A DNA stretch of 64,000 bases from an uncultured Lentimicrobiaceae bacterium. Its GTDB lineage: Bacteria; Bacteroidota; Bacteroidia; Bacteroidales; JAGNHN01. The DNA is taken from assembly GCA_964590645.1 (NCBI GenBank), contig CAZPYJ010000003.1:32349-96348 (forward strand), written 5' to 3'. The notes below the pieces were generated by a model that was not told where the DNA came from, searched no databases, and saw nothing but the letters and a program-made list of their open reading frames with translations. The position numbers and the translations under genes are program-made. Positions within the stretch are counted from its first letter, which is position 1. Every line of letters starts with the position of its first letter. Positions 27,968 through 62,489 of this stretch are shown piece after piece.

Positions 27968-29506
27968 TCATTGAGCATTGATCAGGTAAACACTGCTCTG
28001 GCGACTTTGGTACGAATCCAGGAGTTGTCCATCATTTTCATAAGGTTTAACTATCGTTTTATCTATCGACTGCCCATCTTTTACAAATGGGTTAGAAAAA
28101 ACAAGCCAAACCTCACCCCTCAAGGCCGTAAGGTCAGAATAGATTTCTTTTTCATTACTCCAGTCTTCCTCCCCTTCAATTATCTTTCCCGGTACTTTTA
28201 TCCCATTTGTTTTATGGTAATACTGATATGTAGGTATAGCCATAAAATGCACGTAAACAAGTTGATCGTCATCAAAATGATCTACCATATACTCCCAGGC
28301 GTTCTTAAACTTAACGATGTGAATCGGGTAATGAAGATATCCGGGCGCAATGAGGATGACACACAAAACAATGGAAACCAAGGCCCCTGATTTGTTTAAT
28401 TGCAATACCAGAAAATGCAGGCTATATGCCACAGGAAAAAGGAAGGAAACAGAGAGATAAAGCAGAAGTCGGGGTGCAAAAGGATACAGGGTCAATGCTG
28501 AAATAATCCATTGAAGAATAATGGGGAAGAAGACAAAATACAGAATCTGATATTTCTTATCTTTTACCATTTGGATTGTGCCCATTAAAAACAGCAAGGC
28601 AAGCAGCGCTAATAATAAGTAGCTCGGCATATTATCATTGAAAGAAAAGACTATCATCTTATTTGCAACTACAGCAGGATACTTGATAATCCAATGATAG
28701 AACTCTAAACGAAATGGGTTGGCAGGAGGAAAGTGTGCTGCCCAGAACCCTTTTAAATAAACCATTCCATCTAATTGGAGGAGGTAGGTTGAAATAAAGA
28801 AACTGAAAACAATAAACCAGAGCGTATATAGAATCAGTTCTTTTTTTATCGACTTATCTCCTGCCGACATCATCACCTTTAATCGATATAAGCCAAGGAC
28901 AAATAACACCAGGGGTGCAGTAAAACTGCTTAAAATGGAAATGATGCCGCTGAATAATAAGATCACATATTTTCGCTTGGATTCAGTTTTCTCGGAATTG
29001 GGAATGAGAAGATTACCTAAGAACAGCGCAAAGAAGAGATCCACAGCGTAGGGTTTCAATTCGCTTGCATACCTTATCTGAAAGAGGGTTATAGCAAAGA
29101 GTGCCAGAAGGAATAATGCTACGCCACGGCTTGCCCTGAGCTTCAAAGAAAAGGAGTAAACCAGAAAGAGGGAGGCTATTGAAGCCAGGAGTGGTATGAT
29201 GCGAAGTGCAAAATCATTGACGCCAAAAAGCACAGTCATACATTTCACACTCAACAGGAAAAGGGGAGCGGAGTACTGCCCCCTTTCAGAAAGGAATAGA
29301 AGTTCCGGGAAAGTATGGTCCAAAATATTCAGGGCCAAACTGGCCTCCTCGAGAATAAAGTCCCTATTGATTAAGAACTGAAGCAGCCGGAGTATGACCC
29401 CGATCAGAATCAACCATCCCCAGAGATTCTTTTCATTAATAAGGGAATTTTGAGTAGAAGGCTTGAATGGAACAAAAGCATTACGATAAAAGACGCCACC
29501 TCTCAT
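27968..29506 (-). CDS. GT-C fold polytopic membrane glycosyltransferase (ArnT/PMT-like), AT-rich gene
   Basis: 512 aa with at least 10 predicted TM segments. First-loop FILEEASLALNILDH resembles the DE/EE acidic motif of GT-C enzymes. Codon usage is visibly AT-rich compared with neighbours. Confidence 0.55.
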   Translation of the reverse strand: MRGGVFYRNAFVPFKPSTQNSLINEKNLWGWLILIGVILRLLQFLINRDFILEEASLALNILDHTFPELLFLSERGQYSAPLFLLSVKCMTVLFGVNDFALRIIPLLASIASLFLVYSFSLKLRASRGVALFLLALFAITLFQIRYASELKPYAVDLFFALFLGNLLIPNSEKTESKRKYVILLFSGIISILSSFTAPLVLFVLGLYRLKVMMSAGDKSIKKELILYTLWFIVFSFFISTYLLQLDGMVYLKGFWAAHFPPANPFRLEFYHWIIKYPAVVANKMIVFSFNDNMPSYLLLALLALLFLMGTIQMVKDKKYQILYFVFFPIILQWIISALTLYPFAPRLLLYLSVSFLFPVAYSLHFLVLQLNKSGALVSIVLCVILIAPGYLHYPIHIVKFKNAWEYMVDHFDDDQLVYVHFMAIPTYQYYHKTNGIKVPGKIIEGEEDWSNEKEIYSDLTALRGEVWLVFSNPFVKDGQSIDKTIVKPYENDGQLLDSYQSRQSSVYLINAQ

Positions 29507-55519: not shown

Positions 55520-56257
55520 TTAACCCGCTATGGCTATCCTTTGCAGGGTTTCGTAATTCCTGATTTCCACCGAATCTCCCTGCGACTCGATCAGCCCTTC
55601 GTCTTTGAATTCCTTGAGGATGCGAATAACACTTTCTTTGGAAAGGCCGGTCATTTCAGCCAGATCCTGACGGGAAAGGTTGAGGTGGAAAGGGTTGGCG
55701 TTATAAATTTCCTTCTGCAGATACAACAGCATTTCTGCCACCCTTCCAGGGACCTGCTTCTGGGTAAGGCTGATCAGCTTTTCATAACTGAGTATCTCGT
55801 GATGATTAATCTTCCGGATCAGTTCGTTCGCAAAGCCAATGTTGGTCCCTATCAGCTTTTGGAACAACTTCCCGTCCATATAGCAACAAGTACAATCCGA
55901 TACTGCCGTAACCGTATAATGGTTTCTCCCGTCTGTGTTCAGGCCCGGTCCCCAAAACATCTCAGGCGGTTTGGCAATCCGCAGGATGAGATTACGGTTG
56001 AAGAGTCCTTCAATATACAATTTGGCGAAGCCCGAAGTCAGTGTGATGATATGCGTATTGTCCGTCCCTTGTTTGATGATGGTCTCTCCGGAACGGTAAC
56101 TGACTTCATACCGGCTGCCATTCACCATCTCAAGCTCCTGCTCCGAAAGCTTACGGAACAAAGGGGACTGAATCTCACAGTCCTTGCAATTCTTGCATCT
56201 GAATGATTTATGAAACAGGGAACTCAATTTTTCAGCCTCGTTTTTAGTATTGAACAA
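55520..56257 (-). CDS. Crp/Fnr family transcriptional regulator with FNR-like cysteine cluster
   Basis: cNMP-binding-like beta-roll plus C-terminal HTH (LSRQDLAEMTGLSKESVIRILKEF). Cys at residues 21, 24, 27 (RCKNCKDCE) and 122, 124, 125 (DCTCC) by direct counting. Confidence 0.85.
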   Translation of the reverse strand: MFNTKNEAEKLSSLFHKSFRCKNCKDCEIQSPLFRKLSEQELEMVNGSRYEVSYRSGETIIKQGTDNTHIITLTSGFAKLYIEGLFNRNLILRIAKPPEMFWGPGLNTDGRNHYTVTAVSDCTCCYMDGKLFQKLIGTNIGFANELIRKINHHEILSYEKLISLTQKQVPGRVAEMLLYLQKEIYNANPFHLNLSRQDLAEMTGLSKESVIRILKEFKDEGLIESQGDSVEIRNYETLQRIAIAG

Positions 56258-56278
56258 ATATATAAAAACTTAGACGTA

Positions 56279-56292
56279 TTGATACAGGTCAA
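56279..56292. promoter_or_regulatory. FNR/CRP-type box TTGATacagGTCAA (one mismatch to TTGAT-N4-ATCAA)
   Basis: Read directly in the divergent intergenic region. It lies 22 nt from the regulator start codon and 118 nt before the ATG at 56410. Confidence 0.55.
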
Positions 56293-56409
56293 TTATTTTT
56301 TGATCTGTTTCGTATTTTTCTCTGCTTTATTCCCTAACAAGCAAACCGCTGTATATGAGGGAAGCGTCTTTCTTTGTACAGGGATTAACAAAAGAGAGAA
56401 AGAAATACG

Positions 56410-56784
56410 ATGAAAAGACTGTTTATAATTCTGACGGCGGTAACGATGACCGGACTGGCCCTGCTGATGCCGGGATGCAAGTATGATCACCCGGTTCCTG
56501 AGCCCCTTCCTGAGAATGTAAGTTTTTCAGAAGATGTCGTCCCCTACTTCAACAAAAGCTGCAATTACGCCGGATGCCATAATACGGGGGGTGTTGCGCC
56601 CGATCTGACCCCTGAATTTGCCTATGATGATCTTTTTGCCAAAAACCAGATCAATCTGGACAATCCGGAAGAAAGCATCCTCTATGTAAAAATCGCTCCG
56701 GGTGGTTCTATGGAGCCTTACAGCAAGCCGGCAGAGACGGCGATGGTACTGGCCTGGATCAAAGACGGTGCACCCAACAATTAG
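56410..56784 (+). CDS. Small lipoprotein with cytochrome-c-domain-like C-x4-C-H motif
   Basis: Lipobox LLMPGC. VVPYFNKSCNYAGCHNTGGVAPDLT...WIKDGAPNN resembles PSCyt1-type c-type cytochrome domains but has CX4CH spacing. Confidence 0.6.
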   Translation: MKRLFIILTAVTMTGLALLMPGCKYDHPVPEPLPENVSFSEDVVPYFNKSCNYAGCHNTGGVAPDLTPEFAYDDLFAKNQINLDNPEESILYVKIAPGGSMEPYSKPAETAMVLAWIKDGAPNN

Positions 56785-56827
56785 TCGCAGCTTGTTTCAT
56801 AAAAGCCATTAAGCCAATCCAATTGAT

Positions 56828-57724
56828 ATGAAAAAGATCAGAACATTCCTACTTAGCACTCTGCTCCTTTGCGGGATCGCATTTATGGTAACAGCTCAGG
56901 ATGAGGAGAAGGTGGTTGACAAACCCATCCGACCCCCCTTTCAGAGTGGGTATCTTTTAGATAATCAAACGACCTATTTGCCGGTGGAGGGAACCCTGGA
57001 AATGATTATTCACCATCGTTTTGGAGTCACCAGCAATGGCAGCAGCGACTTGTGGGGAATATATGCGCCTGCCAATATTCGTATGGGATTTAACTACAAC
57101 ATTAAGGATTACCTCCAGGTAGGCATAGGCACCACCAAATTCAGGAAGTTGCAGGATGTGTCGTATAAAGCCCTGATCCTCCAGCAAACCCGATCGGGCC
57201 GCATCCCTGTTTCCATCGCCTTCTATGGCAATATTGCCCTTGACGCAAGAGATGAAGCGGTTTTCGGGGTGGATTATGAATTTGCCCATCGCTTTTCCTA
57301 TTTCAACCAGCTGATCATTTCCCGCAAGATCAATGATATGTTCAGCGTACAACTGGCACCCTCCTTTGCCCACTACAATATCGTTGAGCAGGGGCTGCAG
57401 AACCGCTATGCAGGGATCAGCTTTAACGGCAGGGCCCGGATCAGCCCGCAAACTTCTATTGTCTTTCAGTATGATACCCCCATCGAAATTGATGCTTTGC
57501 TGGTGAAAGGCCAGGCCGGACTGGATGGAAGCTTCGAGCACGAGCTGCCCAAAGCCAATATCGGAATTGGCATTGAAATCGCAACCAGTACACACGCCTT
57601 CCATATCTTCCTGGCTTCCGGCCAGGGGATCGTCCCCCAGGAGAATATGCTTTTCAACCGCAACGATTTTTTTGACGGTGGTATGCTTCTTGGTTTCAAT
57701 ATGACGCGATTATGGAATTGGTAA
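56828..57724 (+). CDS. Small outer-membrane beta-barrel protein
   Basis: Signal peptide ending VTAQ, alternating amphipathic strands, an HHRFG motif near the N-terminus, and a C-terminal aromatic end (TRLWNW). Confidence 0.65.
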   Translation: MKKIRTFLLSTLLLCGIAFMVTAQDEEKVVDKPIRPPFQSGYLLDNQTTYLPVEGTLEMIIHHRFGVTSNGSSDLWGIYAPANIRMGFNYNIKDYLQVGIGTTKFRKLQDVSYKALILQQTRSGRIPVSIAFYGNIALDARDEAVFGVDYEFAHRFSYFNQLIISRKINDMFSVQLAPSFAHYNIVEQGLQNRYAGISFNGRARISPQTSIVFQYDTPIEIDALLVKGQAGLDGSFEHELPKANIGIGIEIATSTHAFHIFLASGQGIVPQENMLFNRNDFFDGGMLLGFNMTRLWNW

Positions 57725-57759
57725 TTTCTTATCTTTAACAACCAACAAAAGGAGAAACA

Positions 57760-58185
57760 ATGAAATCTAAAACAATGAAAATCTTAAGCAGCACATTGGT
57801 TCTTGCCCTTGTAGGCCTCGTTATGATGTCCTTCACCTCGGCTCCTTCGCAGGAGAAGAAACCCTGGGACGTTCCTGCTAAATACAAGGCAATGAAGAAC
57901 CCTCACTCAGCAGACAAATCACTGATTAACGTCGGAAAAATGCAGTGGAACAAGCATTGCAAATCCTGCCACGGTGGAACAGGTCTGGGAGATGGCCCGA
58001 AAGCCAAACAGCTGAAGACTCCTATGATGGACTTCTCAGCGAAAGACTTCCAGGCCTTTTCCGATGGAGAGATGTATTATATGTCCTTCATCGGAAGAGA
58101 TGAAATGCCCAACTTCGAGAAGAAAATTCCGGATGAAGAAGACCGCTGGGCCATTGTGAACTTTATGCGAACGATGGCGAAGTAG
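57760..58185 (+). CDS. Monoheme class I c-type cytochrome
   Basis: Signal/anchor peptide, a single CKSCH heme motif followed by GGTGLGDGPKA, and downstream Met residues (GEMYYMSF, DEMPNF) as candidate sixth ligands. Confidence 0.85.
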   Translation: MKSKTMKILSSTLVLALVGLVMMSFTSAPSQEKKPWDVPAKYKAMKNPHSADKSLINVGKMQWNKHCKSCHGGTGLGDGPKAKQLKTPMMDFSAKDFQAFSDGEMYYMSFIGRDEMPNFEKKIPDEEDRWAIVNFMRTMAK

Positions 58186-58271
58186 TCCCATCGCATTGAG
58201 GTAGGGTGTAGTGGTCATTGCTGACCCTGCACCCTATCTTTCAAAATCCAACGACCAAATCCATCATCGCT

Positions 58272-59252
58272 ATGCTGCCAGAAAACGCAATGCATCGTTA
58301 CGGCCTGGTGCTCATTTTTATCAGTCTGCTCCTCGCCACAGGGCTGAAAGGCCAGGATTATACCAAGGACCTACCGGCAGAACTCATAGAAGAGAATGCG
58401 GTATCCTGTCTGAACTGCCATTCAAAATTGTATTTTTCCTACTACAACGAATGGAAAGAAGACAGCGTGAAGCGCAGAATGTGCGATGATTACCACATCT
58501 TACCGGAAGAGTTTTACCGGTCGAACCACAAATCATTTCGTTGCATAGATTGCCATTCTGCTGATTTCGCCCAGTATCCGCACGATCCGGATCTAAGGAT
58601 GGAACCCAAGTATGAATGTATGGATTGCCACGGCGGTGATGACTTCTGGGCGATGTATAAATTCGAAGAGATTTATGACGAATATGCCGAGAGTGTGCAC
58701 GCCAAACTCTTCGATCAGGGTTTTTCCTGCTGGAGCTGTCACGACCCGCACGAGTATCACAGCAGTTTCCGGAACACAAAAAACCTCAGAGAAAGCATCG
58801 CTTATAATAATGCAATATGCCTGGATTGCCACAGCAATGTGAATAATTACCTGCTGGTGAACGCCAAAGAAAATCCTGATTTGATGGAGACCCACAGCTG
58901 GCTGCCGAATCAAAGGCTGCATTTTGCTGCTGTACGCTGTATTGAATGCCATACTGAAGTAAATGACAGCCTTCTGGTGGCACATAAAATCTTACCCGGA
59001 AAAGAAGCGGTTCGCAATTGCGTGGAGTGCCACTCCAAAGACAGTCGACTGATGCTGTCGCTGTACCGCTTTGAAAAACAGGAGGAAAGAAGCCGATTCG
59101 GTTTTTTCAATGGCGTCATCGTGAGTAACTCCTCCTATGTCATTGGTGCTAACCGGAATATTTTCCTGAATATCGCCTCTGTTGCCATTTTCGGGCTCAC
59201 ATTATTGGGGATCTTCATTCACATTATCCTTCGTATCACCATAAAAAAATAA
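58272..59252 (+). CDS. Heptaheme c-type cytochrome with C-terminal membrane anchor
   Basis: Seven CxxCH motifs read in the translation: CLNCH, CIDCH, CMDCH, CWSCH, CLDCH, CIECH, CVECH. N-terminal signal and C-terminal TM (IFLNIASVAIFGLTLLGIFIHIIL). Confidence 0.85.
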   Translation: MLPENAMHRYGLVLIFISLLLATGLKGQDYTKDLPAELIEENAVSCLNCHSKLYFSYYNEWKEDSVKRRMCDDYHILPEEFYRSNHKSFRCIDCHSADFAQYPHDPDLRMEPKYECMDCHGGDDFWAMYKFEEIYDEYAESVHAKLFDQGFSCWSCHDPHEYHSSFRNTKNLRESIAYNNAICLDCHSNVNNYLLVNAKENPDLMETHSWLPNQRLHFAAVRCIECHTEVNDSLLVAHKILPGKEAVRNCVECHSKDSRLMLSLYRFEKQEERSRFGFFNGVIVSNSSYVIGANRNIFLNIASVAIFGLTLLGIFIHIILRITIKK

Positions 59253-59256
59253 TCTT

Positions 59257-59880
59257 ATGAGTGAGAAATTATACCTCTACCCGGCCAGCATTCGCATCTG
59301 GCATCTGGTGAATGCCGTCCTGATCATTCTGCTTATCATCACCGGAGTGAACCTGCAATATGCTTCCAAAGAGTTTATGCTTATCCCTTTTGAAACCGCG
59401 GTCAGCATTCATAATATCTGTGGGGTTTTGCTTTCGTTTAACTATCTCCACTATATCATAGCCAGCATTATTACAGGCAACTTTAAGTTTTATAATCTTT
59501 TTAAACCCGGCTTTCGGACCAATCTGCTGAAGCAGGCCCGCTTCTATATCTACGGACTCTTTAAAGGTGAACCACATCCCTTTCACGCCAGCAAAGCGGA
59601 GAAATTCAATCCGTTGCAGAAAATCGCCTATTGGTTTGTGATGTTTATCTTTCTGCCGCTGGTAGTAATAACAGGATGGTTTTTGCTGTATCCCGACAGC
59701 GTTGCCTATGTTCTGGCCGGGATACATCTTCTTCATTTTACCATCGTCATTCATATCATTGCCGGCTTTATGCTCTCCGTTTTCCTCATTGTACACATAT
59801 ACCTGTGCACCGTCGGAATGAAATGGAGTGATGCCATTAAAACCATCTCCACAGGCTACCATCATCCGGTCGAAGAGTAA
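59257..59880 (+). CDS. Membrane cytochrome b (PhsC/FdnI/Ni-Fe-hydrogenase b-type subunit-like)
   Basis: Four to five TM helices. N-terminal YPASIRIWHLVNAVLIILLIITG with conserved His, further His residues in TM helices, and a start 5 nt after the heptaheme gene stop. Confidence 0.75.
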   Translation: MSEKLYLYPASIRIWHLVNAVLIILLIITGVNLQYASKEFMLIPFETAVSIHNICGVLLSFNYLHYIIASIITGNFKFYNLFKPGFRTNLLKQARFYIYGLFKGEPHPFHASKAEKFNPLQKIAYWFVMFIFLPLVVITGWFLLYPDSVAYVLAGIHLLHFTIVIHIIAGFMLSVFLIVHIYLCTVGMKWSDAIKTISTGYHHPVEE

Positions 59881-59902
59881 AAAAAATATGCCCTCCCAAC
59901 AT

Positions 59903-59934
59903 AAGCCGGTCTTCAATAGCAGATCGGCTTTTTC
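59903..59934 (+). terminator. Rho-independent terminator after the cytochrome b gene
   Basis: aagccggtct-tcaatagc-agatcggctt: a 10-bp stem with one G.U pair, running into ttttt. Confidence 0.7.
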
Positions 59935-59963
59935 TATTATTAATGATCCACCTCACTAATTCC

Positions 59964-59977
59964 TTGATATATATCAA
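59964..59977. promoter_or_regulatory. Perfect FNR-consensus box TTGATatatATCAA
   Basis: Read directly. It lies 137 nt upstream of the hexaheme lipoprotein ATG (60114). An extra TTGAT half-site occurs at 59985-59989. Confidence 0.6.
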
Positions 59978-60113
59978 TCCATTGTTGATCCTTTGCCGTT
60001 TCTTGCCTGAAAAATCTCAGCCATCATTTTAACGCTATTAACAAGAATAGAACGAAATTGCAAGGTGAAAAAGAAAAGCGATTTCCAATAACCAAACCTA
60101 ACATTGAAGCGAT

Positions 60114-61157
60114 ATGAAAAAGTCATTGACCAGATTGCTTAGCCTCTTCGGACTGTTTCTTGCATTCCAGGTGCTTATGCTCACTTCCTGTGAAGGACCG
60201 GAAGGACCGGCCGGGCCACAAGGTCCTGTAGGCGCCGATGGTTCCGCCATTTGTGGCGATTGTCACAACCTCACCACCGATCTGTATGCCAAGATCATTC
60301 AGTATGAATCTTCCACACACCGTCTGGGAGGAAACTATGAGCGGAGTACGGCATCCTGCGCCAAATGCCACACCCACGAAGGGTTTATGGAGCAATTGGC
60401 TACCGGCACTGTGGCAGCTAGCATTAACAACCCCACCCCTGTTAACTGCCGTACCTGCCACCCCATTCACGAGTCTTATACCCAGGCAGATTACGCCTTA
60501 CGTACGGTAGCTCCTTTCGAGCTGGACATTCTGGATACCAAAGTGACCTTTGATATGGGCAACGGGAATATTTGCGCAGCCTGCCACCAGCCGCGTGTAG
60601 CCAATCCCAAGCCCGAAGTAGGAGGAGCAGATGTCACCATTACCTCCTTCCGCTGGGGATACCATTACAGTACCCAGGCTGCAATGATGGTAGGTGAAGG
60701 CGGATATCGTATCCCCGGATCCATCGATTATAACACCGTGGCCGCCAAGCATTACAATAATCTGAAAGATGGATGCGTGGACTGCCATATGGCCAAGGCC
60801 TTTGGCTCACAGGCAGGAGGACATACATTCAATGTTTCCTATGAGGCTTATGGAAATGCCACCCCCAATATGGCGGCCTGTACCGATTGCCACAGTGGAG
60901 CCACCAGCTTTGATATTATGGGCGGGCAAACCGAGATTGCAATGCTGCTCGACTCGCTGAAAAGCCTGATGACCGATGCCGGTATCTATGGGTTCAATGG
61001 CAGTTATATTTATCCGGGCACCTATAGCGCCGATGATGCAGGCTGCTACCTGAACTATCAGTTTGTATATGCCGATCAAAGCCTGGGAGTGCACAATACC
61101 AGCTATGCCCGCGCTCTGCTTAGCAACTCCATTGAATACCTGAATACCAAGAAATAA
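60114..61157 (+). CDS. Hexaheme c-type cytochrome lipoprotein with N-terminal collagen-like G-X-Y segment
   Basis: Lipobox LMLTSC followed by EGPEGPAGPQGPVGADG. Six CxxCH motifs: CGDCH, CAKCH, CRTCH, CAACH, CVDCH, CTDCH. Confidence 0.85.
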   Translation: MKKSLTRLLSLFGLFLAFQVLMLTSCEGPEGPAGPQGPVGADGSAICGDCHNLTTDLYAKIIQYESSTHRLGGNYERSTASCAKCHTHEGFMEQLATGTVAASINNPTPVNCRTCHPIHESYTQADYALRTVAPFELDILDTKVTFDMGNGNICAACHQPRVANPKPEVGGADVTITSFRWGYHYSTQAAMMVGEGGYRIPGSIDYNTVAAKHYNNLKDGCVDCHMAKAFGSQAGGHTFNVSYEAYGNATPNMAACTDCHSGATSFDIMGGQTEIAMLLDSLKSLMTDAGIYGFNGSYIYPGTYSADDAGCYLNYQFVYADQSLGVHNTSYARALLSNSIEYLNTKK

Positions 61158-61187
61158 TCACTGATAAGGATTAGAATGATTTGGGTG

Positions 61188-61226
61188 AGGGGCTGTCTCG
61201 TAAGTCGAGGCAGCCCCTTGATTTTT
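61188..61226 (+). terminator. Strong rho-independent terminator after the hexaheme gene
   Basis: 13-bp stem aggggctgtctcg / cgaggcagcccct with loop taagt, followed by tgattttt. Confidence 0.8.
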
Positions 61227-61278
61227 AGGATTCATTGCTCCCAGTCGATTCTCAGGGGGCAAATGACTGATGAGAAAT

Positions 61279-61328
61279 CCCCTCAACGCCGCTCCCCTCG
61301 ACTACGCTCGGGGAGCGGCGTTGAGGGG
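61279..61328. repeat. Perfect 19-bp GC-rich inverted repeat (12-nt spacer)
   Basis: cccctcaacgccgctcccc (61279-61297) and ggggagcggcgttgagggg (61310-61328) are exact reverse complements. Confidence 0.9.
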
Positions 61329-61376
61329 AGCGGGAGGCAAAGAGTTTTATCTACCTTTGCTGTTACATTAAAGATA

Positions 61377-62489
61377 ATGAGCAAAGCGGAGAAGCCATCC
61401 AAATCAGCCCTGAATGTCCAGAAAGGCATAGACCCCCCGCCCCTGCTGAATCCGGTGGCGGTGGGAAAAATCCGTGCCCTCAGGAAAAAAGAACTCACAG
61501 TGGACGAGATCAGGCTGGGTCTGCTGCAGGGAGATCGCAATATGCTGGGAAGGGCGATCACCCTGACGGAAAGTCGCCGGAAAGATCATCAGGCCCTGGC
61601 CCGCGATCTGATCGAGTCTTGTCTCCCGCTAACAGGAAAATCCATCCGCATAGGCATTACCGGGGTTCCGGGAGTGGGAAAAAGTACTTTCATTGAAGCC
61701 CTGGGCACCTATCTTACCCGCCTTGGAAAGAAACTGGCTGTTCTGGCCATTGATCCCTCCAGCGCCCGTACCGGAGGTTCCATCCTTGGCGATAAAACCC
61801 GGATGGAGAAACTATCCATCGATCCCAATGCCTTTATCCGTCCCTCACCCTCGGCCGGAAGCCTGGGCGGGGTGGCCAGAAAAACCCGGGAAGCCATTGT
61901 CCTATGCGAAGCAGCCGGATTCGATGTGATCCTGGTAGAAACGGTGGGGGTAGGACAGTCGGAAACCGCAGTACACGCTATGGTGGATTTCTTCCTCCTG
62001 CTGATGCTTGCCGGCGCCGGCGACGAGCTGCAGGGGATAAAAAGAGGCATTATGGAAATGGCGGATGCCATTGTGATCAATAAAGCAGACGGAGAGAACA
62101 TTACAGCTTCAACACGTGCTCAGGCACAATACAAAAACGCCCTGCATCTCTTCCCGCCGCCCAAATCGGGATGGGAACCCAAGGTCCTTACCTGCTCTGC
62201 CCTGCAACAAAAAGGCATCCCGGAAGTATGGGCACTCATCACCGAATATAAAGCCCTCACAACCCACAATGGCTTCTTCGAGGAAAAACGCAGAGAACAA
62301 AGCCGGGGACTGCTGAGGGAAGCCATTCAGGAAAGACTGATGGAAGACCTTTTCCGGCATCCGGAGATACAGGAGCGAATCAAAGATCTGGAAGAAGCCG
62401 TAGTACAAAACCGCAGCAGCGCATACCACGCCGCCAATAAGCTCACCGAAGCCTATTTCAGAATCATTGAAAAGGAGCAGCAGGCTTAA
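61377..62489 (+). CDS. meaB: MeaB/ArgK-type G3E-family GTPase (methylmalonyl-CoA mutase-associated)
   Basis: [19 protein letters not shown]-loop, [10 protein letters not shown] and INKADG. Start at MSKAEKPSK; the longer ORF-track start spans a terminator and a palindrome. Confidence 0.85.

What the first reader, a model, noticed from the sequence alone, without database searches (positions are those of the whole stretch)
55520..61157. FNR-controlled multiheme / cytochrome b / small OM-barrel cluster with no recognisable catalytic subunit - candidate undescribed electron-transfer system
Seven adjacent genes form a coherent envelope-spanning redox set. They are a Crp/Fnr regulator with an FNR-like Cys cluster; divergent from it a CX4CH lipoprotein, a 298-aa OM beta-barrel, a monoheme cytochrome c, a heptaheme cytochrome with a C-terminal TM anchor and an integral-membrane cytochrome b whose start is 5 nt after the heptaheme stop; and, after a terminator, a separately transcribed hexaheme lipoprotein. 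This gives 14 canonical CxxCH sites plus one CX4CH, spread over the inner membrane (cytochrome b, anchored heptaheme), the periplasm (monoheme) and lipid-anchored or outer-membrane positions. No molybdopterin, copper, siroheme, Fe-S or other terminal oxidoreductase subunit is present. The layout is what a quinol-to-periplasm/outer-surface electron conduit would look like: cytochrome b as quinol dehydrogenase, multihemes as wire. This is reminiscent of porin-cytochrome or CymA-type modules, but with different parts and a barrel far smaller than MtrB/OmbB-type porins. Both transcription units carry FNR-type boxes, implying induction under oxygen limitation.
Basis: partly seen in the sequence, partly recalled or inferred. 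Interest (0 to 1): 0.78.

Follow-up and report, generated by a model that had tools for sequence, protein, structure and literature searches.

The report
Cytochrome electron-export gene cluster in Bacteroidales

Summary
The set is a conserved unit. In 80 related Bacteroidales loci the heptaheme gene is followed by the cytochrome b gene in 78/90 cases, the DUF5777 barrel is present in 78 loci and the small lipoprotein cytochrome in 74, while flanking genes differ.

The parts can now be named:
- **Heptaheme + cytochrome b:** match the published description of Geobacter CbcBA, a menaquinol oxidase needed for low-potential extracellular electron transfer.
- **Hexaheme lipoprotein:** a shortened relative of OcwA, the surface terminal reductase of Thermincola.
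- **Barrel:** a 12-stranded DUF5777 protein. Elsewhere it occurs fused to a homolog of the cluster's monoheme cytochrome c.
- **"CX4CH" protein:** a variant of a mostly CxxCH lipoprotein family.

FNR-type boxes recur upstream of the same two genes in relatives, about ten times more often than background. About half of the relatives also carry a DsrO/DsrP-like (NrfC/NrfD-type) quinol module that this window lacks.

The best reading is an outward electron conduit to extracellular acceptors (confidence 0.55). How electrons cross the outer membrane is unresolved. I rate it a new variant of a known kind. No function was tested experimentally.

The parts
55520..56257 (-). Crp/Fnr-family regulator, 245 aa, TTG start. 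N-terminal C-x2-C-x2-C (C21, C24, C27) plus a central Cys (C125).
   Evidence: Pfam cNMP_binding + HTH_Crp_2. In 63 homologs the N-terminal CxxC is 95-97% conserved and the central Cys 98%; the fourth Cys position varies. The Cys cluster lies before the first ATG, so the non-ATG start is required. A public gene call also gives 245 aa. Present in 57-58 of 80 related loci.
56279..56292 (.). FNR-type box TTGATacagGTCAA (1 mismatch) in the divergent intergenic region, 124 nt upstream of the small cytochrome gene and 22 nt upstream of the regulator's TTG start.
   Evidence: Equivalent boxes lie within 250 nt upstream of the small-cytochrome gene in 31/86 homologous cases, mostly 115-146 nt upstream, against about 3.5% expected from background density.
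56410..56784 (+). Small lipoprotein monoheme c-type cytochrome, 124 aa, with a lipobox Cys and a CNYAGCH heme site.
   Evidence: Weak NCBIfam LIC11213-like hit. The family is found in 74/80 loci, directly upstream of the barrel in 75/85 cases. 71/86 members have CxxCH and 13 have CX4CH. A lipobox is present in 82/86 members. A homolog sits in a Kapabacteria cluster (E 2e-7).
56828..57724 (+). DUF5777 outer-membrane beta-barrel, 298 aa, with signal peptide; predicted 12 strands.
   Evidence: Pfam PF19089, E 2.4e-73. AlphaFold2 model pLDDT 89.6 with 12 strands. Best structural matches are FapF, OmpG, NanC and COG4313 channels. Present in 78/80 loci. Invariant H63 and H256. A natural fusion with a monoheme cytochrome c exists (P0489).
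57760..58185 (+). Periplasmic class-I monoheme cytochrome c, 141 aa, with signal peptide, CKSCH and a conserved Met116.
   Evidence: Pfam Cytochrom_C / Cytochrome_CBB3. C67, C70, H71 and M116 are at least 95% conserved in 74 homologs. Present in 58/80 loci. 30% identical (E 3e-21) to the cytochrome domain fused to DUF5777 in P0489.
58272..59252 (+). CbcA-like heptaheme cytochrome c, 326 aa, periplasmic, with a C-terminal TM helix (about residues 296-325) that carries invariant His317 and Arg321.
   Evidence: 7 invariant CxxCH plus H317/R321. 2675 homologs at E<=1e-5, found in at least 589 GTDB species genomes. The architecture matches CbcA as described. A fused form with cytochrome b exists (P0097, 528 aa).
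59257..59880 (+). CbcB-like dihaem cytochrome b, 207 aa, about 4 TM helices. Conserved His16, His52, His166 and His180.
   Evidence: PF01292, E 7e-22. NCBIfam thiosulfate-reductase cytochrome b (PhsC) model scores 169 bits, below the 204 cut-off. A profile built from 7 homologs hits the hydrogenase-1 cytochrome b HyaC, 4gd3, at E 2e-4. Four His are at least 95% conserved. It follows the heptaheme gene in 78/90 cases with a median gap of 2 nt.
59903..59930 (+). Terminator-like hairpin followed by a T-run, after the cytochrome b gene.
   Evidence: 10-pair stem, tail TTTCTATTAT. This is a consensus scan only.
59964..59977 (.). Perfect FNR-type box TTGATatatATCAA, 143 nt upstream of the hexaheme gene.
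   Evidence: Equivalent boxes lie upstream of the hexaheme gene in 28/55 homologous cases, against about 2 expected.
60114..61157 (+). OcwA-like hexaheme lipoprotein, 347 aa: lipobox Cys26, a collagen-like G-P-x linker, 6 CxxCH and a C-terminal three-helix bundle.
   Evidence: 6 invariant CxxCH plus 5 invariant extra His. AlphaFold2 model pLDDT 90.5. Foldseek best hit is OcwA 6i5b (E 9e-6, TM 0.47-0.50), then NrfA weakly. Profile versus OcwA gives E 1e-11 over the C-terminal half. Present in 49/80 loci and also in Gemmatimonadota, Kapabacteria and Ignavibacteria.
61186..61220 (+). Strong terminator-like hairpin (15 pairs) after the hexaheme gene.

Best explanation
This is an oxygen-repressed electron-export (extracellular electron transfer) pathway. 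Shown here: gene content, conservation, homologies, fusions and conserved regulator boxes. Inferred: direction of flow, protein locations and the acceptor. (1) When O2 is low, the Fnr-type regulator, which probably senses O2 through an Fe-S cluster on its Cys motif, binds the TTGAT-N4-ATCAA boxes. It then switches on two units: small cytochrome - barrel - monoheme - heptaheme - cytochrome b, and the hexaheme gene. (2) The 4-TM dihaem cytochrome b (CbcB-like) oxidises menaquinol and passes electrons through its two b haems to the heptaheme (CbcA-like). The heptaheme's C-terminal helix packs against cytochrome b and may supply a haem ligand (His317). (3) The soluble monoheme cytochrome c carries electrons across the periplasm and docks on the periplasmic face of the 12-stranded DUF5777 barrel. 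(4) The barrel, the small lipoprotein cytochrome and the OcwA-like hexaheme lipoprotein on its collagen-like stalk form the outer-membrane and surface end. They hand electrons to extracellular or cell-surface acceptors such as Fe(III)/Mn(IV) oxides, humic quinones or partner cells, giving fermenting Bacteroidales an extra electron sink. The physical way electrons pass the outer membrane is not resolved.
For: Co-conservation is independent of the flanking genes. Heptaheme and cytochrome b are present in 80 and 79 of 80 loci, the barrel in 78, the small cytochrome in 74, the monoheme in 58, fnr in 57 and the hexaheme in 49; ppiD, meaB, gldE and terC are shared only with the nearest relative L001. 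CbcBA match: 7 haems, a C-terminal TM helix with an invariant His, and a 4-TM dihaem b cytochrome that scores as 'thiosulfate reductase-like'. [quoted passage not shown] They also report homologous clusters in Prolixibacter, Marinilabiliales and Labilibaculum, and the loci fetched here include Prolixibacteraceae, Marinilabiliales and Tangfeifania MAGs. Fusions: heptaheme-cytochrome b (P0097) and monoheme c-DUF5777 (P0489). The hexaheme's closest solved relative is OcwA, a cell-surface terminal reductase. A Kapabacteria cluster holds hexaheme, small cytochrome, monoheme, a CbcA-like cytochrome (E 6e-35) and cytochrome b; in the barrel's place it has a 427-aa protein with an N-terminal CxxCH followed by a barrel-like C-terminal part, a Cyc2-type layout. 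A Bacteroidota locus keeps the outer module and the hexaheme but swaps CbcBA for a NrfC/NrfD-type quinol module, as expected for interchangeable quinol dehydrogenases feeding one outer pathway. FNR boxes are conserved upstream of the two unit starts and absent before internal genes. Cultured Labilibaculum strains reduce Fe(III) and Mn(IV) oxides while fermenting glucose, and the genes responsible are unknown.
Against: There are no experimental data for any protein of this cluster. A 12-stranded barrel is too narrow to enclose a folded cytochrome, so the known porin-cytochrome mechanism does not transfer directly. One or two haems can hardly bridge an outer membrane. Whether the two lipoproteins are on the cell surface is unknown; acidic residues after the lipid Cys are only suggestive. 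OcwA-like and NrfA-like proteins can also reduce soluble nitrite and hydroxylamine, so the acceptor could be soluble. Homology to Geobacter CbcBA rests on matching architecture and on the paper's statement, not on a sequence comparison made here. The regulator type differs from Geobacter (Fnr-type here, sigma-54/BccR there). The 80 loci were selected through the heptaheme and are related to each other, so the counts are not independent.
Confidence: 0.55

Rival explanations
1. It is a periplasmic respiratory or detoxifying reductase system for a soluble acceptor. CbcBA-type quinol oxidation feeds the monoheme cytochrome, which feeds the OcwA/NrfA-like hexaheme. The hexaheme is the enzyme, acting on for example nitrite, hydroxylamine, NO, a sulfur oxyanion, selenite or peroxide. 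The DUF5777 barrel is only the outer-membrane entry channel for that substrate, and the lipoproteins face the periplasm.
For: The hexaheme belongs to the NrfA/OcwA structural superfamily. OcwA has two five-coordinate haems and slowly reduces nitrite and hydroxylamine. Only 5 invariant non-motif His are available for 6 haems, and most family members have a 'HH' pair at the position of window H184-Y185, so one open haem is possible. 12-stranded barrels such as NanC and COG4313 are substrate channels. NrfC/NrfD-type modules in the relatives are typical of periplasmic reductases.
Against: There is no CxxCK catalytic motif and all six sites are CxxCH. CbcBA is so far tied to extracellular acceptors. 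A substrate-channel role does not explain the fusion of a cytochrome c to the barrel or the Cyc2-like cytochrome-barrel protein at the same position in Kapabacteria. It also does not explain why a second small cytochrome lipoprotein always sits next to the barrel.
Confidence: 0.22
2. It runs in the opposite direction and takes up electrons, for example by Fe(II) or reduced-humic oxidation or uptake from a cathode. The barrel plus monoheme would act like the Fe(II) oxidase Cyc2, passing electrons inward to the multihemes and through cytochrome b into the quinone pool.
For: The monoheme-DUF5777 fusion and the Kapabacteria CxxCH-barrel protein have the Cyc2 layout. CbcL/MtoC/MtrH-type bc cytochromes occur in both Fe(III) reducers and Fe(II) oxidisers. 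Cyc2 homologs were reported in Bacteroidetes MAGs from an anoxic humic lake.
Against: The carriers are mostly anaerobic, fermentative-type Bacteroidales MAGs. No terminal oxidase or nitrate reductase is linked to the cluster. Induction by an Fnr-type regulator under O2 limitation fits an alternative electron sink better than microaerobic Fe(II) oxidation. DUF5777 shows no detectable homology to the Cyc2-like Kapabacteria barrel (hhalign probability 11%).
Confidence: 0.13
3. The DUF5777 barrel is not an electron-transfer part at all. It would be a dedicated export or anchoring device for the neighbouring lipoprotein(s), in the manner of Slam or FapF-like translocators. The redox chain would consist only of the cytochromes.
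For: The closest folds include FapF, a polypeptide secretion channel. The barrel gene is almost always directly downstream of a lipoprotein gene (75/85). A separate module pairing small cytochrome lipoproteins with a DUF5777 barrel occurs without the other cytochromes (L011).
Against: c-type cytochromes receive haem and fold in the periplasm, so passage through a 12-stranded barrel is implausible. An exporter role does not predict the fusion of a soluble class-I cytochrome c to the barrel's N-terminus.
Confidence: 0.08

Closest known systems
CbcBA (GSU0594/GSU0593) of Geobacter sulfurreducens, an inner-membrane bc-type menaquinol oxidase for low-potential extracellular electron transfer
   Same: A seven-haem periplasmic cytochrome anchored by one C-terminal TM helix that carries a conserved His. 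A separate 4-TM dihaem cytochrome b usually annotated 'thiosulfate reductase-like'. Gene order c then b, tightly coupled. Fused forms exist in other lineages. Homologous clusters in Bacteroidetes were already noted by the authors.
   Different: It is regulated by an Fnr-type protein with TTGAT-N4-ATCAA boxes rather than the sigma-54/BccR system. It is embedded in a fixed cluster with a DUF5777 barrel, two monohaem cytochromes and an OcwA-like hexaheme, none of which is part of the Geobacter operon as described. Four rather than three conserved His are seen in the b subunit. No direct sequence comparison with the Geobacter proteins could be made here.
OcwA of Thermincola potens (PDB 6i5b), cell-surface terminal reductase of a Gram-positive electroactive bacterium
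   Same: It is the best structural match (Foldseek E 9e-6, TM about 0.5, 21-23% identity) and the best profile match (E 1e-11). Both have a multihaem core plus a C-terminal three-helix bundle of the NrfA superfamily, and both are cell-envelope-anchored.
   Different: Six haems instead of nine. It is a lipoprotein with a collagen-like stalk in a diderm cell. The window protein has H-Y where most family members have H-H. Whether it has open-coordination haems like OcwA haems 2 and 5 is unknown.
Cyc2, the fused monohaem cytochrome-porin of Fe(II) oxidisers
   Same: One c-type haem domain is associated with the N-terminal, periplasmic side of an outer-membrane barrel. A natural monohaem c-DUF5777 fusion exists (P0489). 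A CxxCH-barrel protein occupies the equivalent position in a Kapabacteria cluster.
   Different: In the window the cytochrome and the barrel are separate genes. The barrel has 12 predicted strands (Cyc2 is predicted to be larger; this is from my own knowledge). No sequence homology was detected to the Cyc2-like Kapabacteria protein. Cyc2 works inward, as an Fe(II) oxidase.
Porin-cytochrome conduits (MtrCAB, Pcc OmbB-OmaB-OmcB, MtoAB)
   Same: The overall logic is the same: an inner-membrane quinol oxidase, periplasmic cytochrome(s), an outer-membrane barrel and a surface lipoprotein multihaem cytochrome.
   Different: The barrel is far too small (12 strands, 298 aa) to sheath a deca- or octahaem cytochrome, and no MtrA/OmaB-like periplasmic multihaem insert is present. 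Apart from weak Pfam matches of both multihaem proteins to the MtrC/MtrF domain II/IV model (one above its cut-off), no specific sequence relationship to these systems was found.
NrfBCD / DsrOP / Cbc4 (CbcSTU)-type quinol dehydrogenase modules
   Same: About half of the related loci carry a TAT-signal 4x[4Fe-4S] protein (DsrO/NrfC-like, 182 bits against the DsrO model) and an NrfD/DsrP-like membrane protein right after cytochrome b. One locus has only this module.
   Different: These genes are absent from this window, where CbcBA is the only quinol module.

Membership tests
CbcBA-type bc cytochrome (Joshi, Chan & Bond 2021) | Periplasmic c-type cytochrome with seven CxxCH sites | tested here: met
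   7 CxxCH, all invariant in 18 homologs; 78 of 91 cluster members have exactly 7.
CbcBA-type bc cytochrome (Joshi, Chan & Bond 2021) | Single C-terminal transmembrane anchor on the c subunit, carrying a His that can ligate haem b | tested here: met
   Hydrophobic segment at residues 296-325 with invariant H317 and R321. Haem ligation itself is not testable.
CbcBA-type bc cytochrome (Joshi, Chan & Bond 2021) | Separate four-TM dihaem cytochrome b of the PF01292 / 'thiosulfate reductase-like' kind, encoded next to the c subunit | tested here: met
   PF01292 E 7e-22; PhsC model 169 bits (below its 204 cut-off); 4 conserved His; 4-nt gap to the heptaheme gene; adjacency in 78/90 cases.
CbcBA-type bc cytochrome (Joshi, Chan & Bond 2021) | Sequence homology or orthology to G. 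sulfurreducens GSU0593/GSU0594 | not testable with these tools
The paper states that homologous clusters occur in Prolixibacter, Marinilabiliales and Labilibaculum, taxa whose relatives appear among the loci found here.
CbcBA-type bc cytochrome (Joshi, Chan & Bond 2021) | Sigma-54 / BccR-type regulation | tested here: not met
   The regulator here is Crp/Fnr-type with FNR boxes. A sigma-54 regulator does occur next to a distant analogue in Gemmatimonadota.
CbcL / MtoC / MtrH fused bc cytochromes | One polypeptide with an N-terminal multihaem domain and a six-TM cytochrome b domain | tested here: not met
   There are two genes with 1 + about 4 TM helices. A fused relative exists (P0097), but the literature says CbcBA and CbcL share no sequence homology.
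Porin-cytochrome complex (MtrAB / Pcc type) | Large barrel (about 20 or more strands) that encloses a periplasmic multihaem cytochrome | tested here: not met
   12 predicted strands in 298 aa. No MtrA/OmaB-like gene is present.
Cyc2 fused cytochrome-porin | N-terminal CxxCH domain and barrel in one polypeptide | tested here: not met
   They are separate genes in the window. Fusion is seen only in a relative (P0489). Homology to authentic Cyc2 was not tested (no reference sequence), and hhalign to a Cyc2-like protein gave probability 11%.
OcwA / NrfA multihaem superfamily | Multihaem core with a C-terminal three-helix bundle; fold and profile similarity | tested here: met
   Foldseek against 6i5b E 9e-6; profile HMM E 1e-11; helices at 268-288, 306-321 and 329-346.
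OcwA / NrfA multihaem superfamily | NrfA catalytic CxxCK haem, or OcwA's nine haems with two five-coordinate haems | tested here: not met
   Six CxxCH and no CxxCK. Haem coordination state is not testable from sequence.
FNR-type O2-sensing regulators | Crp/Fnr fold with an N-terminal Cys cluster plus a central Cys, and TTGAT-N4-ATCAA target sites | tested here: met
   Pfam domains. Three Cys positions are 95-98% conserved and a fourth is variable. The boxes are enriched about tenfold upstream of the two unit starts. Fe-S binding and O2 response are not testable.
Pfam DUF5777 | Score above the Pfam gathering threshold over the full model | tested here: met
   246.9 bits against a 23.1 cut-off, model positions 1-247 of 247.

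The most novel reading that the evidence does not exclude
DUF5777, together with its docked monohaem cytochrome c and the small lipoprotein cytochrome, is a new minimal kind of trans-outer-membrane electron conduit. It would be a split analogue of Cyc2 built on a 12-stranded barrel, possibly using the barrel's invariant histidines or a bound cofactor. Feeding an OcwA-like surface reductase, it would make hundreds of supposedly fermentative Bacteroidales species electroactive.
Probability: 0.35. Interest if true: 0.82.

Novelty: new variant of a known kind. Interest (0 to 1): 0.62.

Why it matters
Bacteroidales are among the most abundant anaerobes in sediments, groundwater, digesters and soils, and are normally modelled as fermenters. 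This cluster occurs in at least 589 species-level genomes. If it exports electrons to minerals, humics or partner cells, it would change carbon- and metal-cycling budgets, and it would give a genetic marker for 'fermentative-type' metal reduction, whose genes are unknown. It would also assign a first function to the DUF5777 family (about 1,900 representative sequences at 50% identity; no paper in the searched library mentions the name). Finally, it would show how electrons cross an outer membrane without a large porin. Cultured carriers reported by others (Labilibaculum, Prolixibacter) make the idea testable.

Tried and rejected
- **Known molybdo-, copper- or sirohaem-enzyme complex:** rejected. 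No such subunit is in the window or among the recurrent families in 80 loci.
- **Chance adjacency or simple synteny:** rejected. The flanks are not conserved but the cluster is.
- **CX4CH as a special site:** rejected. It is a minority variant of a CxxCH family.
- **DUF5777 homologous to the Cyc2-like Kapabacteria barrel:** no support (hhalign probability 11%).
- **Hexaheme as an OmcS-type nanowire or MtrC-type decahaem:** the structure search returned only OcwA/NrfA-type hits. The Pfam MtrC-domain hits are modest (48 bits, just above the 30-bit cut-off, for the hexaheme; 29.8 bits, just below it, for the heptaheme).
- **PDB sequence search with cytochrome b alone:** nothing useful was found. 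Only a 7-sequence profile reached HyaC.
- **NrfC/NrfD, the ~500-aa NapC/NrfH-like cytochrome or CcsBA elsewhere in the window:** none found.
- **Literature searches for this cluster:** searches for DUF5777 and for Bacteroidales/Bacteroidota EET found no description of it. There were only general notes of putative EET genes in Bacteroidetes MAGs and the CbcBA remark.
- **Sigma-70 promoter scan:** uninformative, 9 sites against 9.5 expected; Bacteroidota promoters are not covered by that scan.

Full report
**1.

Public gene calls on 24 contigs read that carry the same heptaheme protein give the same products: 245, 124, 298, 141, 326, 207 and 347 aa. A regex count gives 7 CxxCH in the heptaheme, 6 in the hexaheme, 1 in the monoheme, and one CNYAGCH in the 124-aa lipoprotein. 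The 7 and 6 motifs are invariant in alignments of 18 and 61 homologs.

Pfam and NCBIfam give the following:
- The regulator has Crp/Fnr domains.
- The barrel is DUF5777 (E 2.4e-73).
- The monoheme is a class-I cytochrome c.
- The cytochrome b is PF01292, with a strong but sub-threshold match to the thiosulfate-reductase cytochrome b model (169 bits against a cut-off of 204).

The two FNR-type boxes are at 56279-56292 (one mismatch) and 59964-59977 (perfect). Only two perfect sites exist in the whole window. Terminator-like hairpins follow the cytochrome b gene (59903-59930) and the hexaheme gene (61186-61220).

There are two minor corrections. The heptaheme most likely starts at ATG 58272. The gap to the cytochrome b start is 4 nt.

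**2. It is a conserved functional unit, not a chance neighbourhood**

The heptaheme has 2675 homologs at E<=1e-5. It was found in at least 589 species-representative genomes, almost all uncultured Bacteroidales or Bacteroidota MAGs. I fetched 80 loci with 10-kb flanks and analysed them by tblastn and by all-against-all ORF clustering.

| Gene | Loci (of 80) |
|---|---|
| Cytochrome b | 79-80 |
| DUF5777 barrel | 78 |
| Small lipoprotein cytochrome | 74 |
| Monoheme | 58 |
| fnr | 57 |
| Hexaheme | 49 |

The order is stereotyped:
- The small cytochrome gene is directly followed by the barrel gene in 75/85 cases.
- The barrel gene is followed by the heptaheme gene directly (47 cases) or via the monoheme gene (25 cases).
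- The heptaheme gene is followed by the cytochrome b gene in 78/90 cases, with a median gap of 2 nt.

The window's flanking genes (ppiD, gldE, meaB, terC) are shared only with the nearest relative, L001. The rest of the window is ordinary housekeeping.

Two caveats apply. The loci were selected through the heptaheme and are related to one another, so the counts are conditional and not independent. My ORF caller also used ATG starts only.

**3. What the relatives add**

About half of the loci carry three further genes directly after cytochrome b:
- a TAT-signal poly-ferredoxin (DsrO/NrfC-like), in 41 loci;
- an NrfD/DsrP-like membrane protein, in 40 loci;
- a roughly 290-aa protein with a C-terminal TM helix, in 37 loci.

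Thirty loci have a roughly 500-aa cytochrome with a NapC/NrfH-like N-terminus, most with six CxxCH sites and (in L011) N-terminal hydrophobic segments. Twenty-four have a CcsBA cytochrome-maturation fusion. None of these has a homolog in the window.

The nearest relative L001 has the three genes exactly between cytochrome b and the hexaheme. The direct cytochrome b → hexaheme adjacency of the window occurs in none of the other 80 loci. The window lineage therefore looks like a deletion variant that relies on one quinol module.

Conversely, an 8.1-Mb Bacteroidota genome (L081) has fnr, small cytochrome, DUF5777, NrfC-like, NrfD-like, a 285-aa gene, monoheme, hexaheme and CcsBA, but no heptaheme or cytochrome b. 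So two quinol-dehydrogenase modules appear interchangeable in front of a constant outer part. No catalytic molybdo-, copper- or sirohaem subunit turned up anywhere.

**4. Identity of the inner-membrane module**

- The heptaheme carries a C-terminal hydrophobic helix (residues 296-325) with invariant His317 and Arg321.
- The cytochrome b has four His conserved at 95% or more (H16, H52, H166, H180).
- A profile of the cytochrome b reaches the hydrogenase-1 cytochrome b HyaC.
- A 528-aa natural fusion of the two proteins exists (P0097), inside an otherwise identical cluster.

This is the architecture that Joshi, Chan and Bond describe for CbcBA of Geobacter sulfurreducens. CbcA is a seven-haem periplasmic cytochrome with a C-terminal anchor that seems to supply a haem-b ligand. 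[quoted passage not shown] The authors state that homologous cbcBA clusters occur in Bacteroidetes (Prolixibacter, Marinilabiliales, Labilibaculum), and they propose cbcBA as a marker for extracellular electron transfer. MAGs labelled Prolixibacteraceae, Marinilabiliales and Tangfeifania are among my loci.

I could not fetch the Geobacter sequences. Membership therefore rests on matching architecture plus that statement. The regulator type differs: Fnr here, sigma-54/BccR in Geobacter. The fused CbcL/MtoC/MtrH family is a functional analogue but not the same family.

**5. Identity of the hexaheme**

It is a lipoprotein: 49 of 55 family members have a lipobox. After the lipid Cys comes a collagen-like G-P-x stretch, then six invariant CxxCH sites and five further invariant His.

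- The AlphaFold2 model is confident (pLDDT 90.5) and ends in three long helices.
- Its best solved relative is OcwA, the cell-surface terminal reductase of Thermincola potens (Foldseek E 9e-6, TM about 0.5), followed weakly by NrfA-type nitrite reductases.
- A family profile hits OcwA at E 1e-11 over the last two haem sites and the helical bundle.

OcwA reduces iron oxides and shuttles. It has two five-coordinate haems and slowly turns over nitrite and hydroxylamine. The cluster therefore does contain a candidate terminal reductase.

The family also occurs in Gemmatimonadota, Kapabacteria and Ignavibacteria.

**6. The outer-membrane module**

The DUF5777 model (pLDDT 89.6) is a 12-stranded barrel. 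Its nearest folds are FapF, OmpG, NanC and the COG4313 channel. It has invariant His63 and His256. That is too small to hold a folded cytochrome.

The family has about 1,900 representatives at 50% identity. Most are stand-alone proteins. P0489, however, is a natural fusion of a class-I monohaem cytochrome c to the N-terminus of a DUF5777 barrel. Its cytochrome domain is 30% identical to the window's monoheme (E 3e-21), and Pfam precomputed hits confirm the fusion. This ties gene 4 to gene 3 physically and reproduces the layout of Cyc2.

The 'CX4CH' protein belongs to a lipoprotein family in which 71 of 86 members have ordinary CxxCH.

In a Kapabacteria contig, the hexaheme is followed in this order:
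- a 427-aa protein with an N-terminal CESCH and a barrel-like C-terminal part (a Cyc2-like layout; no Pfam hit and no structure model was made);
- a homolog of the small cytochrome lipoprotein;
- a monohaem c;
- a CbcA-like cytochrome (E 6e-35, including the anchor helix);
- a cytochrome b.

The same system therefore exists with a different barrel, and DUF5777 is not detectably related to that barrel. A Gemmatimonadota locus has a more distant analogue with a DUF3187 barrel and sigma-54 regulators.

**7. Regulation**

In the regulator family the N-terminal CxxC and a central Cys are 95-98% conserved, and a fourth Cys varies in position. This resembles the FNR cluster ligands. In the window these Cys lie upstream of the first ATG, so the TTG start is needed.

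| Gene with a box (≤1 mismatch) within 250 nt upstream | Cases |
|---|---|
| Small cytochrome | 31/86 |
| Hexaheme | 28/55 |
| fnr | 29/63 |
| Barrel, NrfC-like, NrfD-like | 0 |

Background density predicts about 3.5%. The boxes mostly lie 115-146 nt before the start codon, as in the window (124 and 143 nt). This is a phylogenetic footprint for Fnr-type control of the two unit starts. The response to O2 itself is inferred.

**8. Mechanism and rivals**

The best-supported reading is an outward electron-export chain:

menaquinol → CbcB-like cytochrome b → CbcA-like heptaheme → monohaem c → DUF5777 barrel with the small lipoprotein cytochrome → OcwA-like hexaheme → extracellular acceptor

In its favour:
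- Physiological plausibility comes from Labilibaculum, whose strains reduce Fe(III) and Mn(IV) oxides while fermenting glucose, by unknown genes.
- Putative EET genes have been noted in Bacteroidetes MAGs from an anoxic humic lake.

What is not explained:
- How electrons cross the outer membrane through or along a 12-stranded barrel.
- On which side of the membrane the lipoproteins sit. Acidic residues at +2/+4 after the lipid Cys resemble the Bacteroidota surface-export signal (my own knowledge) but prove nothing.

The rivals are:
- a periplasmic reductase for a soluble acceptor, with the barrel as substrate channel (0.22);
- inward electron uptake of the Cyc2 kind (0.13);
- the barrel as a lipoprotein export or anchoring device (0.08).

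**9. Novelty**

The kind of system is known: quinol oxidase, periplasmic cytochromes, outer-membrane barrel, surface multihaem. Its inner module belongs to a described family, and the presence of that module in Bacteroidetes was already noted. The fixed partnership with DUF5777, two monohaem cytochromes and an OcwA-like lipoprotein under Fnr control is not described in any paper I could find. I therefore rate it a new variant of a known kind, with interest 0.62.

Noticed in passing
L011 17948-20854 (minus strand); second DUF5777 copies (26-30% identity) also in L004, L032 and L076 (surrounding genes not examined there): A second, separate module: two small CxxCH lipoproteins of the same family, a 147-aa protein of unknown family, a weakly YceI-like protein (NCBIfam E 0.0018) and a divergent DUF5777 barrel (29% identical to the window's), with no multihaem genes. 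The small cytochrome + barrel pair may therefore be a self-standing unit.
   Followed up: partly
L083 11109-12392 (Kapabacteria contig): A 427-aa protein with signal peptide, N-terminal CESCH and a barrel-like C-terminal part ending in an aromatic residue. This is the layout of the Fe(II) oxidase Cyc2. It has no Pfam hit and lies between the hexaheme and the small cytochrome lipoprotein.
   Followed up: partly
L088 6257-7480 (protein P0489): A natural fusion of a class-I monohaem cytochrome c to a DUF5777 barrel, next to a Reeler-domain protein with a type-IX secretion tail.
   Followed up: partly
Protein P0396 (615 aa): A tandem duplication of two DUF5777 barrels in one polypeptide.
   Followed up: no
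L082 1741-11092 (Gemmatimonadota contig): A histidine kinase and a sigma-54 response regulator lie directly upstream of multihaem - cytochrome b - multihaem - DUF3187 - hexaheme. The regulator type recalls BccR of the Geobacter cbcBA operon.
   Followed up: partly
window 59881-60113, compared with L001 11585-15107: The nearest relative has three extra genes (DsrO/NrfC-like, DsrP/NrfD-like and a 291-aa C-terminally anchored protein) between cytochrome b and the hexaheme. The window has only a 233-nt spacer there. This direct adjacency was seen in 0 of 80 relatives, so the window lineage looks like a deletion variant.
   Followed up: partly
window 61176-62489: The 437-aa MeaB/ArgK-like ORF begins inside the hexaheme terminator hairpin (61186-61220). 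The public gene call is 370 aa, so the true start is near 61377.
   Followed up: partly
window 28262-28275: The only other perfect TTGAT-N4-ATCAA site in the window lies inside ORF 27968-29506 (minus strand, 512 aa, no Pfam hit). Its significance is unknown.
   Followed up: no
Related loci, e.g. L011 14812-16317 (minus strand): A roughly 500-aa cytochrome with N-terminal hydrophobic segments (seen in L011), a NrfH/NapC-like domain and, in most members, 6 CxxCH occurs in 30 of 80 loci. It resembles the description of Geobacter ImcH, but this was not tested.
   Followed up: no
window 56313-56320: TATTTTTC lies about 34 nt downstream of the centre of the first FNR box. It resembles the Bacteroidota -7 promoter motif TAnnTTTG (my own knowledge), at the spacing expected for a class II Fnr-activated promoter (sequence read).
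   Followed up: no
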